64,000 nt of DNA from Escherichia coli (GTDB lineage: Bacteria; Pseudomonadota; Gammaproteobacteria; Enterobacterales; Enterobacteriaceae), in assembly GCF_003018255.1 (NCBI RefSeq), contig NZ_CP027440.1; one strand, written 5' to 3'. Numbering within the stretch: position 1 is the stretch's first letter; the number at the start of each line of letters is the position of its first letter. Of this stretch, positions 63,009 to 64,000 are shown piece after piece. The position numbers were made by a program, and so were the translations under genes. The notes below the pieces were generated by a model. That model was given only the letters and a program-made list of their open reading frames with translations. It did no database searches and was not told the DNA's origin.

Positions 63009-63045
63009 CTTCCCCAAAACTTTCCCCAAAACCCTTCCCCAAAAC
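63009..63045. repeat. three tandem 12-bp TTCCCCAAAAC repeats, candidate arm-type Int sites
   Basis: cttccccaaaac tttccccaaaac ccttccccaaaac lies 10 bp from the integrase stop. Same motif family as 2001-2036. Confidence 0.5.
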
Positions 63046-63055
63046 TGGCTATTTT

Positions 63056-64000
63056 CTATGCTGTTTTGATATCTACGATAATCCAGTCTTTACCACGATC
63101 ATCATTGTATCGGTCGGTCATTTTTCTGGATTTATGGCCTAACAACTTTTGCGTATCCAGACCCTGTTCCCGATATAACCGTTCTGACAGAGATCGCTGT
63201 TCATGAAATGTGGGCGCAGTTCCTTGCTCCCATTTTATGCCACATTTTTCCCGGGCCTTTTTAAAAGCCGTTGTCAGAGTATTTGCAGAAACCTGGTCTC
63301 CTCTGTTTGCTTGAGAGGTAGTGTGACGGTAATGGACCAGATATTTACTAACAACAGCATCCCTGCACTGAGATATAACTTCACGAAGGGTAATATTCAG
63401 AGCATCGCATTTCAGGTTAAGCGGAATAGCAAGTTTTGAACCGGTTTTTTCCTGAGTAATGTGCAACATGTCGTCCCAGATATCAGAGAATTTCAAATTG
63501 CAGATATCGCCTAAACGTTGTCCAGTGACAAGAGCAAGTAGCATCCCGCATTTTAAATAGGGCTGTCGTCTGCTTACGCTGTCAAATATTGCCTGCCATT
63601 CGGGCAGTGATAATCTTTGGCGGTTTACTCGATTTCGCGGTTGTTTTGTTGCCTGCGCTGGGTTAAATCCTGGCGGAACATGTCCTGCGTGTTGTGCTTC
63701 TTTGAAGACGTCGATCAACACCATTCTCACGACTTGCGCCATCCTGTTATGACCTTCAGCCTTTACAGCATCAATTATTTCGGCAATATCAAGTGCGGTA
63801 ATATCCTTGAGGTGTTGCATTCCACAATGCTCACGGAAAAGACGAATGGGTTTGCCTTTTTGCCGATAGGAGTTGGGTCTTAGTTCATTATGTTGCAGCC
63901 TGTCCTCCTGGATAGAAATATATTTATCAAGCCATTCTGTCACCGTAATGTCTGAGCGCCTGCCTTTCATTCTTTCCAGACGCTCATTGACGCTTAATAT
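63056..64000 (-). CDS. int: e14-type prophage integrase, N-terminus beyond the window
   Basis: Tyrosine recombinase motifs (TGQRLGD ... HEQRSLSERLY ... LLGHK ... DRY). The frame stays open upstream of the Met at 63970 to the window edge. Adjacent to icd, like e14 intE. Confidence 0.85.
   Translation of the reverse strand: MLSVNERLERMKGRRSDITVTEWLDKYISIQEDRLQHNELRPNSYRQKGKPIRLFREHCGMQHLKDITALDIAEIIDAVKAEGHNRMAQVVRMVLIDVFKEAQHAGHVPPGFNPAQATKQPRNRVNRQRLSLPEWQAIFDSVSRRQPYLKCGMLLALVTGQRLGDICNLKFSDIWDDMLHITQEKTGSKLAIPLNLKCDALNITLREVISQCRDAVVSKYLVHYRHTTSQANRGDQVSANTLTTAFKKAREKCGIKWEQGTAPTFHEQRSLSERLYREQGLDTQKLLGHKSRKMTDRYNDDRGKDWIIVDIKTA

What the first reader, a model, noticed from the sequence alone, without database searches (positions are those of the whole stretch)
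63009..64000. A second, related integration module 13 kb away shares the same arm-type repeat motif
The integrase next to icd (63056 to beyond 64000) is clearly homologous to the Stx-phage integrase, with roughly 45% identity by eye and identical PTFHEQRSLSERLY and LLGHK...TDRYNDxRG blocks. Both genes are followed by triple tandem TCCCCAAAAC-type repeats (2001-2036 and 63009-63045). Two prophages with related Int proteins and near-identical putative arm sites in one chromosome raise the possibility of cross-recognition. One element's Int or Xis could influence excision of the other.
Basis: partly seen in the sequence, partly recalled or inferred. Interest (0 to 1): 0.5.

Follow-up and report, generated by a model that had tools for sequence, protein, structure and literature searches.

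The report
Two prophages sharing integrase arm sites
Two neighbouring prophages in this E. coli chromosome, a Shiga-toxin phage at potB/potC and a phage-21-type element in icd, carry related lambda-type integrases and almost the same triple "arm" repeat; the icd module is a textbook one, so this is a tidy but mostly ordinary finding.

Summary
TCYCCAAAAY occurs 8 times in the window against 0.74 expected. Three tandem copies sit just past the 3' end of each integrase gene (2002-2035 and 63011-63045). One more copy lies at the far end of the Stx2 prophage (49973). The two integrases are 45% identical in the window.

The icd-side module is the classical phage 21 int/att module. A 380-aa Int from a strain whose DNA is identical to window 62700-64000 matches phage 21 Int at 377/380. 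The repeat is base-for-base that of phage 21, whose GenBank record already annotates it as attP subsites.

The potB/potC module belongs to a known Stx2-phage integrase type. Its att anatomy is worked out here: a 12-bp core, one P-arm unit and three P' units.

A survey of 80 loci across Enterobacterales shows this integrase family has five repeat classes with a constant 11/13-nt spacing. Each class goes with its own residues in a stretch of the integrase N-terminal domain. The Stx-phage Int carries the phage 21-class residues, so arm-site cross-binding is plausible.

Cross-excision is unlikely. The cores are unrelated, the core-binding domains are 33% identical and the excisionases 31%. The two integrase types co-occur in E. 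coli genomes at chance frequency (about 519 observed, 505 expected).

The parts
63011..63045 (+). P' arm of the icd (phage 21-type) element: three tandem units of TCCCCAAAAC, start-to-start spacing 12 and 13 nt, ending 10 nt before the int stop codon
   Evidence: Identical to phage 21 OL657228, where it is annotated 'attP consists of 3 subsites P1P2P3; consensus YYTTCCCCAAAA'.
63056..64000 (-). Phage 21-type tyrosine integrase, C-terminal 314 of 380 codons. The N-terminal arm-binding domain is beyond the window.
   Evidence: The full-length protein from identical DNA in L001 is 377/380 identical to phage 21 Int. It matches PF09003 and PF00589 and lambda Int 1z1b at E=2e-55.
62784..62794 (+). 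Approximate crossover core of the icd attachment site (CGCCATATGGG) inside icd. The icd 3' end from here to 62942 is inferred to be supplied by the prophage.
   Evidence: Alignment of the window with phage 21 and ev207 attP and with K-12 e14 attL. Homology to the phages starts here, and the host-side TTA codon is kept just upstream. The exact overlap is not determined.
62966..62996 (+). Stem-loop with a T run after the icd stop codon; annotated as a terminator at the homologous position in phage 21
   Evidence: Sequence; inverted repeat (I3 in L002); annotation.
2002..2035 (+). P' arm of the Stx2 prophage: three tandem units TCTCCAAAAT, TCTCCAAAAC and TCCCCAAAAC, spacing 11 and 13 nt, ending 63 nt before the int stop codon
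   Evidence: The same layout is seen in an Enterobacter relative at potC (L005).
2099..3217 (-). Integrase of the Stx2 prophage (372 aa), lambda-type with an arm-binding N-terminal domain
   Evidence: PF09003 E=3.8e-21; PF00589. Present in 1634 of 5426 complete E. coli genomes. PMC9453080 reports one highly homologous integrase type in four potC-inserted Stx2 phages, and all four host strains are among the hits at 99.3-99.9% identity.
3186..3464 (-). Excisionase of the Stx2 prophage, 92-codon ORF (the 89-aa product from an internal ATG was used in the comparisons)
   Evidence: PF07825. 31% identical to the phage 21-type Xis.
1943..1954 (+). 12-bp identity core CCTTCTTATTCA at the potC-side junction of the Stx2 prophage
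   Evidence: Three-way alignment with the unoccupied K-12 potB-potC junction.
50100..50111 (+). Second copy of the 12-bp core at the potB-side junction. It lies in the last codons of potB, which gets a phage-encoded C-terminus.
49973..49982 (+). Single P-arm unit TCTCCAAAAT of the Stx2 prophage, 127 nt from the core, in the same orientation as the P' units
   Evidence: Phage 21 and ev207 have one unit (TCCCCAAAAT) about 128-131 nt from their core.

Best explanation
Both repeat arrays are the P'-arm arm-type binding sites of two heterobivalent, lambda-type tyrosine integrases.

The module in icd is the phage 21 int-xis-attP module. The module at potB/potC is a distant relative (44% identity) carried by an Stx2 phage.

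In each attP, one arm unit sits about 130 nt to one side of the crossover core, and three tandem units (11-12 and 13 nt apart) sit on the int side. The small N-terminal domain of Int is inferred to bind these units while the rest of the protein binds and cuts the core, so that Int bridges arm and core as in lambda.

The two Ints appear to have kept the same arm-recognition determinants and nearly the same unit: TCYCCAAAAY against TCCCCAAAAC. They have diverged in core recognition.

Each Int therefore probably can bind the other element's arm sites, but it cannot recombine the other element's core. The two elements should integrate and excise essentially independently.

Shown: the sequences, the layout, the homology, the conservation and the residue-to-motif correspondence. 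Inferred: binding, bridging and independence.
For: (1) The motif is far above chance and clusters at the int-proximal junction of both prophages, with one further copy at the distal junction of the Stx prophage.

(2) Free phage genomes with the icd-type Int (ev207, phage 21) show a complete attP with one P-arm unit and three P' units.

(3) The phage 21 record OL657228 annotates the same 37 nt as attP subsites. The window is identical there. Int is 377/380 identical to phage 21 Int.

(4) Both Ints have the PF09003 arm-binding domain and PF00589, with a PF07825 excisionase next door. They align end to end with lambda Int 1z1b.

(5) Of 80 related loci from Enterobacterales, about 60 carry tandem units just past the int stop. 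They fall into five classes: TTCCCCAAAAC, TTATCAAAA, CTGCAAAAC, TCAGTAAAAT and TCTCCAAAA. Spacing is 11/13 almost throughout. Unit positions are near invariant and spacers are variable.

(6) N-domain residues 16-22 and 29 differ between classes. This stretch spans the 5-residue insertion relative to lambda Int. The Stx-phage Int is equally distant from all classes overall (46-50% in residues 81-372). In this stretch it shares Y16, K18, D20, a basic residue at 21, R22, G24 and Q29 with the phage 21 class. Identity over residues 14-31 is 60% to that class, against 39-52% to the others.

(7) The cores differ completely, and the core-binding domain is the least conserved part: 33% against 47% for the N-domain and 51% for the catalytic domain.

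(8) Co-occurrence in 5426 genomes is about 519, against 505 expected under independence.
Against: No binding or recombination data exist for the potC-type module, so arm-site function there rests on comparison alone.

Int and its repeats lie 10-80 nt apart and are inherited together. Part of the residue-to-motif correspondence could therefore be shared ancestry rather than a recognition code.

The potC unit TCTCC is one base from the phage 21 unit TCCCC, but also one base from the TCTGC class. Several N-domain residues differ between the two Ints (F19/L, R21/K, Y28/W), so specificity could be subtly different.

Only one P-arm unit is visible, whereas lambda has two. A degenerate or inverted second site may have been missed.

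The arm-binding domain of the icd-side Int is not in the window. The source genome is not in the complete-genome collection (best match 98%).
Confidence: 0.8

Rival explanations
1. Functional cross-talk. Because the arm units are nearly the same, Int from one prophage occupies the arm sites of the other. It then either poisons the other's excision or integration complexes, or helps assemble them, so that excision of the two elements is coupled.
For: Near-identical units, with one of the three P' units of the Stx phage exactly TCCCCAAAAC. Shared class-specific N-domain residues. In lambda, each Int protomer must bridge an arm site and a core site (PMC4880445), so a protomer that binds only the arm could act as a competitor. 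About 519 complete E. coli genomes carry both integrase types, so the situation is common.
Against: The cores are unrelated and the core-binding domains are 33% identical. The Xis proteins are 31% identical and the P arms are dissimilar outside the arm unit. Co-occurrence is neither depleted nor enriched. By Campbell's account, phage 21 and e14 keep separate specificities even at the same site (PMC3530522). Int is made only transiently.
Confidence: 0.12
2. The repeats are regulatory sites for another protein, such as CII, IHF, Fis or Xis, or part of a sib-like retroregulatory element downstream of int, rather than Int arm sites.
For: Campbell reports CII-type sequences and a sib-like stem-loop downstream of int in phage 21 (PMC3530522). 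A stem-loop does lie just upstream of the repeats (62966-62996).
Against: The CII sites annotated in phage 21 (TTGYN6TTGY) lie elsewhere, in the P-arm region, not on the repeats. The repeats contain no TTGY-N6-TTGY on either strand (reading of the sequence). The unit sequence changes together with the Int N-domain across five classes while spacing stays fixed, which points to Int itself. In lambda, Xis sites lie in the P arm, not the P' arm.
Confidence: 0.05
3. The shared motif is a chance or compositional resemblance between two AT-rich intergenic regions.
For: The units are short (10 nt) and simple in composition. One stray exact match exists inside a gene (15695).
Against: 8 matches against 0.74 expected, with 0 of 100 shuffles reaching 8. 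The same one-plus-three layout and similar P-arm distance in both elements. Conservation in dozens of genera.
Confidence: 0.02

Closest known systems
Phage 21 int-xis-attP module (integration into icd)
   Same: The icd-side element here is this module. The full-length Int read from identical DNA in L001 is 377/380 identical to phage 21 Int, and the in-window 314 codons are part of that identical stretch. The P' triple repeat is identical. It inserts in icd with a phage-supplied icd 3' end, followed by a stem-loop at the position annotated as a terminator in phage 21.
   Different: Nothing material in the window. The rest of the prophage cannot be seen. In a strain with identical junction DNA it is a full lambdoid prophage.
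e14 element of E. coli K-12 (same icd site, different specificity)
   Same: Same attB region in icd and the same layout of three tandem units after the icd terminator. Related Int family.
   Different: The unit is TTATCAAAA rather than TCCCCAAAAC. The e14-class Int N-domain has PLYSRK...R where the phage 21 class has xKLDKR...Q. Campbell states that 21 and e14 have different integration and excision specificities (PMC3530522).
Lambda / HK022 integrase pair
   Same: This is the nearest analogue of the relationship proposed here: two related heterobivalent Ints with the same arm-site recognition but different core specificity. That statement about the lambda/HK022 pair comes from my own knowledge of the work on lambda/HK022 chimeric integrases. 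PMC7736782 confirms only the 70% identity and the domain layout.
   Different: Lambda and HK022 Ints are 70% identical, while the two Ints here are 44%. Here the unit differs at one or two positions in some copies, and the Xis proteins are only 31% identical.
Lambda attP (P1, P2 / P'1-P'3 arm-type sites)
   Same: Arm units on both sides of the core, three tandem units next to int, Xis encoded upstream of int, and Int domains aligning end to end with lambda Int (PMC4880445).
   Different: The unit sequence is unrelated to lambda's. Only one P-arm unit is evident. There is a 5-residue longer stretch in the N-domain. In phage 21 the P' units are about 220 nt from the core, because the icd 3' end and terminator lie in between.

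Membership tests
Lambda-type heterobivalent tyrosine integrase | N-terminal arm-DNA-binding domain (Pfam PF09003) | tested here: met
   Int at 2099-3217, E=3.8e-21. Full-length icd-side Int (from L001, identical DNA in the overlap), E=1.8e-28. For the icd-side Int this domain lies outside the window.
Lambda-type heterobivalent tyrosine integrase | C-terminal tyrosine recombinase catalytic domain with the conserved His/Arg/Tyr boxes | tested here: met
   PF00589 in both. End-to-end alignment with lambda Int 1z1b includes the PTFHExRSLSxRLY and LLGHK...Y.DDRG boxes.
Lambda-type heterobivalent tyrosine integrase | Repeated arm-type sites on both sides of the crossover core in attP | tested here: met
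   One P-arm unit plus three P' units in phage 21 and ev207 attP. The same layout in the Stx prophage, split between its two junctions.
Lambda-type heterobivalent tyrosine integrase | The Int N-domain physically binds the arm units and bridges them to the core | not testable with these tools
   Only indirect support: class-specific N-domain residues track the unit sequence.
Lambda-type heterobivalent tyrosine integrase | Lambda-type excisionase encoded next to int | tested here: met
   PF07825 in both. The gene overlaps the int start in the window (3186-3464) and in L001.
Phage 21 integration module | Int essentially identical to phage 21 Int | tested here: met
   377/380, using L001, whose DNA is 100% identical to window 62700-64000.
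Phage 21 integration module | Insertion within icd, with the phage supplying a replacement icd 3' end | tested here: met
   ev207 and phage 21 carry the icd fragment next to int.
Phage 21 integration module | P' arm with three YYTTCCCCAAAA units | tested here: met
   Identical sequence. Annotation in OL657228.
potB/potC-inserting Stx2 phage integrase type | Insertion at the potB-potC junction with a short identity core | tested here: met
   12-bp CCTTCTTATTCA at both junctions, compared with the empty K-12 site. The site is reported for Stx2 phages in PMC9453080.
Shared-arm, different-core integrase pair (works like lambda/HK022) | Each Int binds the other's arm sites | not testable with these tools
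   The units differ at 0-2 of 10 positions. The class-specific N-domain residues are shared.
Shared-arm, different-core integrase pair (works like lambda/HK022) | Core sites and core-binding determinants differ | tested here: met
   Unrelated cores. Core-binding domain 33% identical.

The most novel reading that the evidence does not exclude
In the roughly one in ten complete E. coli genomes that carry both integrase types, Int from the phage 21-type prophage occupies the arm sites of the potC-type Stx2 prophage, and the reverse. Because it cannot engage the foreign core, it acts as a competitor, so induction of one prophage measurably changes excision of the other and hence Stx-phage release. 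More broadly, residues 16-22 and 29 of the N-domain would form a readable recognition code for five arm-site classes.
Probability: 0.1. Interest if true: 0.55.

Novelty: new member of a known kind. Interest (0 to 1): 0.3.

Why it matters
The icd module is phage 21's and adds nothing new. There are two modest gains.

First, the att anatomy of a very common integration module is now defined, with arm units like those of phage 21. That module is found in 30% of complete E. coli genomes and is used by Stx2 phages at potB/potC.

Second, this integrase family offers a natural series of arm-site classes with fixed geometry and matching changes in the protein. This could guide experiments on how arm recognition is encoded, or the design of orthogonal integrases.

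If Int cross-binding affected excision, it would bear on the stability and release of Stx phages, but the evidence points to independence.

Tried and rejected
(1) I could not retrieve the primary paper on phage 21/e14 att specificity (J Bacteriol 1997, PMC179457 as I recalled it), and a full-text search found nothing with all terms. I rely instead on Campbell's essay and the phage 21 GenBank annotation. My memory that that paper delimits a 366-418 bp attP bounded by repeated dodecamers is unverified. The 395-nt span between the outermost units in ev207 (1209-1603) would fit it.

(2) I tried to find the source genome, to define the second element to the right of the window. The best complete E. 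coli genome is only about 98% identical over 48500-64000. The extent of the second prophage is therefore known only by analogy with strain JNE23-011.

(3) Exact-sequence cluster look-up gave only generic names.

(4) The only phage-database hits for the potC-type module are prophage predictions that include host flanks. No free-phage attP was available, so I reconstructed attP from the two junctions.

(5) I considered CII-site and sib-type readings of the repeats and rejected them (see rivals).

(6) I looked for a second P-arm unit. Only 8/10 matches in inverted orientation were seen, by eye, at non-corresponding distances: about 49997-50006 in the window and about L002:1257-1266. I did not count these.

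(7) The first motif guess, TYCCCAAAAC with one mismatch, was not above chance (8 matches against 10.6 expected). The refined exact pattern was.

Full report
**What the window is.** It is E. coli chromosome. The gene order is:
- potD (95-1141, minus strand) and potC (1138-1932, minus strand);
- a 48-kb lambdoid prophage, about 1955-50099;
- potB (50080-50943), then nine ORFs (potA to rluE by my reading of the K-12 gene order; potA, pepT, phoQ and purB also appear as feature names);
- icd (61692-62942, plus strand);
- a second integrase gene that runs off the window end.

The prophage carries a 319-aa and an 89-aa ORF at 18501-19741 that I recognise as stx2A and stx2B, so "Stx phage" is correct.

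**Checking the observation.** The units on the icd side are TCCCCAAAAC at 63011, 63023 and 63036. On the potC side they are TCTCCAAAAT, TCTCCAAAAC and TCCCCAAAAC at 2002, 2013 and 2026.
- A loose pattern was not above chance.
- The exact degenerate pattern TCYCCAAAAY gives 8 matches against 0.74 expected, and none of 100 shuffles reaches 8.
- Six matches are the two triplets. One is at 49973-49982, at the far junction of the Stx prophage. One (15695) is probably chance.
- The two integrases are 45% identical over the 295 residues visible in the window, and 44% over 375 residues when the full-length icd-side protein is used.

**What the icd-side module is.**
- The DNA from 62700 to 64000 is 100% identical to strain JNE23-011. 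There the gene encodes a 380-aa integrase followed by an excisionase and a full lambdoid prophage.
- The same DNA is 99% identical to free phages such as ev207 and 98% identical to phage 21 itself.
- The Int is 377/380 identical to phage 21 Int. The 37-nt repeat region is base-for-base identical.
- The phage 21 genome record OL657228 annotates exactly this stretch as [quoted passage not shown]. It places the CII sites elsewhere.
- Campbell's essay states that phage 21 inserts in icd at the same site as e14, that the two have different specificities for integration and excision, and that determinants on the phage DNA were identified (PMC3530522).

This half of the finding is therefore already known.

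**attP layout.**
- In the free phages, attP has one unit (TCCCCAAAAT) in the P arm. It lies about 128-131 nt before the point where homology to icd begins. The three units come after the icd fragment and its terminator.
- For the Stx prophage, alignment with the empty K-12 potB-potC junction gives a 12-bp identity core, CCTTCTTATTCA, at 1943-1954 and 50100-50111.
- The single unit at 49973 lies 127 nt before the core. The three P' units start 48 nt after it.
- Both elements thus share a one-plus-three layout in one orientation, with nearly the same P-arm distance.
- The P' distance is about 170 nt longer in phage 21, where the icd 3' end and its terminator lie between the core and the repeats (my inference).

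**Family evidence that the repeats are Int arm sites.** Both Ints have the Pfam lambda arm-binding domain and the catalytic domain, and both have a lambda-type excisionase next door. A scan of one genome per species returned 80 related loci across Enterobacterales.
- About 60 of the 80 loci carry tandem units just past the int stop codon.
- The units fall into five classes: TTCCCCAAAAC (phage 21 type), TTATCAAAA (e14 type, also seen in K-12), CTGCAAAAC, TCAGTAAAAT and the potC type TCTCCAAAA.
- Spacing is 11 and 13 nt in nearly all loci, and 12 and 13 nt in six phage 21-class loci, including the one in this window.
- Unit positions are almost invariant within a class, while the spacers vary.
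- All four non-potC classes occur at icd. The phage 21-type unit also occurs at several other sites.
- On the protein side, residues 16-22 and 29 are class-specific: xKLDKR...Q, PL(Y/F)SRK...R, CYTDAR...R and CFADPR...Q. These residues span a 5-residue insertion relative to lambda Int in the N-domain alignment.
- By analogy with the lambda N-domain structures, which I recall from memory, this region would be a beta-hairpin contacting the DNA major groove. That mapping is inferred, not tested.

**Where the Stx-phage Int falls.**
- Overall it is equally distant from all four other classes: 46-50% identity in residues 81-372.
- In residues 14-31 it is closest to the phage 21 class (60% against 39-52%). 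It shares Y16, K18, D20, a basic residue at 21, R22, G24 and Q29.
- This fits its nearly identical unit and makes cross-binding of arm sites plausible.
- Two cautions apply. Int and its repeats are tightly linked, so some of the correspondence may be shared ancestry. And TCTCC is also only one base away from the TCTGC class.

**Would that give cross-excision?** Probably not.
- In lambda, each Int protomer must bridge an arm site and a core site (PMC4880445).
- Here the cores are unrelated.
- The core-binding domain is the least conserved part: 33%, against 47% for the N-domain and 51% for the catalytic domain.
- The Xis proteins are 31% identical, and the P arms are dissimilar apart from the arm unit.
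- At most, a foreign Int could compete for arm sites.
- The potC-type int-xis segment is in 1634 of 5426 complete E. coli genomes. The phage 21-type int is in 1678. The union is 2793, so about 519 carry both, against 505 expected if independent. This gives no sign of incompatibility or dependence, although the count ignores phylogeny.
- The closest precedent for such a pair is lambda and HK022, which by my recollection share arm recognition but differ in core specificity. Phage 21 and e14 show the converse case.

**Comparison with what is known.** The potB/potC site and its single integrase type are reported for Stx2 phages of O113:H21 and other serotypes (PMC9453080; PMC10925052). I found no description of its arm sites or core in the papers searched.

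**Verdict.** The finding is a correct observation with a sound arm-site reading. One half is textbook. The other half is a new member of the same kind. The cross-talk hypothesis is untested and, on this evidence, unlikely.

Noticed in passing
window 1930-1960 and 50080-50125: The Stx2 prophage does not simply disrupt potABCD. The crossover lies in the last codons of potB, and the phage supplies a new potB C-terminus (…[11 protein letters not shown] in place of …LLNKKVELE*). potC is intact but is now 48 kb from potAB and directly downstream of, and co-oriented with, the phage int gene. Whether potCD is still expressed, perhaps by read-through from int, is open.
   Followed up: partly
L005-L084, region just past each int stop codon: The phage 21/e14-type integrase family in Enterobacterales has at least five arm-unit classes with a fixed 11/13-nt spacing. 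Four classes target icd, and the phage 21-type unit is also used at several non-icd sites. Arm specificity and core specificity appear to have been reassorted repeatedly.
   Followed up: partly
L001 25821-36534 (strain JNE23-011, not the window): In the phage 21-type prophage of a strain with identical icd-int junction DNA, the portal gene is split by an about 10.7-kb insert. The insert has its own tyrosine integrase, a primase, a capsid protein, a head decoration protein and a small terminase. It looks like a helper-embedded phage satellite of the kind described in PMC10111431.
   Followed up: no
window 62780-62794: At the icd crossover the host side reads ATG TTA CGC CAT, where K-12 reads ATG CTG CGC CAC; the free phages ev207 and phage 21 also have CTG, and phage 21 has CAT. 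These are synonymous differences at or next to the core, and they help place the crossover to the right of the TTA codon.
   Followed up: partly
window 48500-64000: The chromosomal backbone from potB to icd is at most about 98% identical to any of 5426 complete E. coli genomes over its full length. The source strain is therefore not in that collection.
   Followed up: no
window 50014-50047: A perfect 14-nt inverted repeat (GGCATGCTTTTTAC / GTAAAAAGCATGCC, 6-nt loop) lies in the P arm of the Stx prophage, between the arm unit and the core. It could be a terminator or a protein-binding site. There is no counterpart in phage 21.
   Followed up: no
window 4383-4445: A 21-nt tandem repeat, three copies at 75% match, lies inside the 814-aa ORF at 3517-5961, whose homologue in a related prophage record is annotated as exodeoxyribonuclease VIII. 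Not examined.
   Followed up: no
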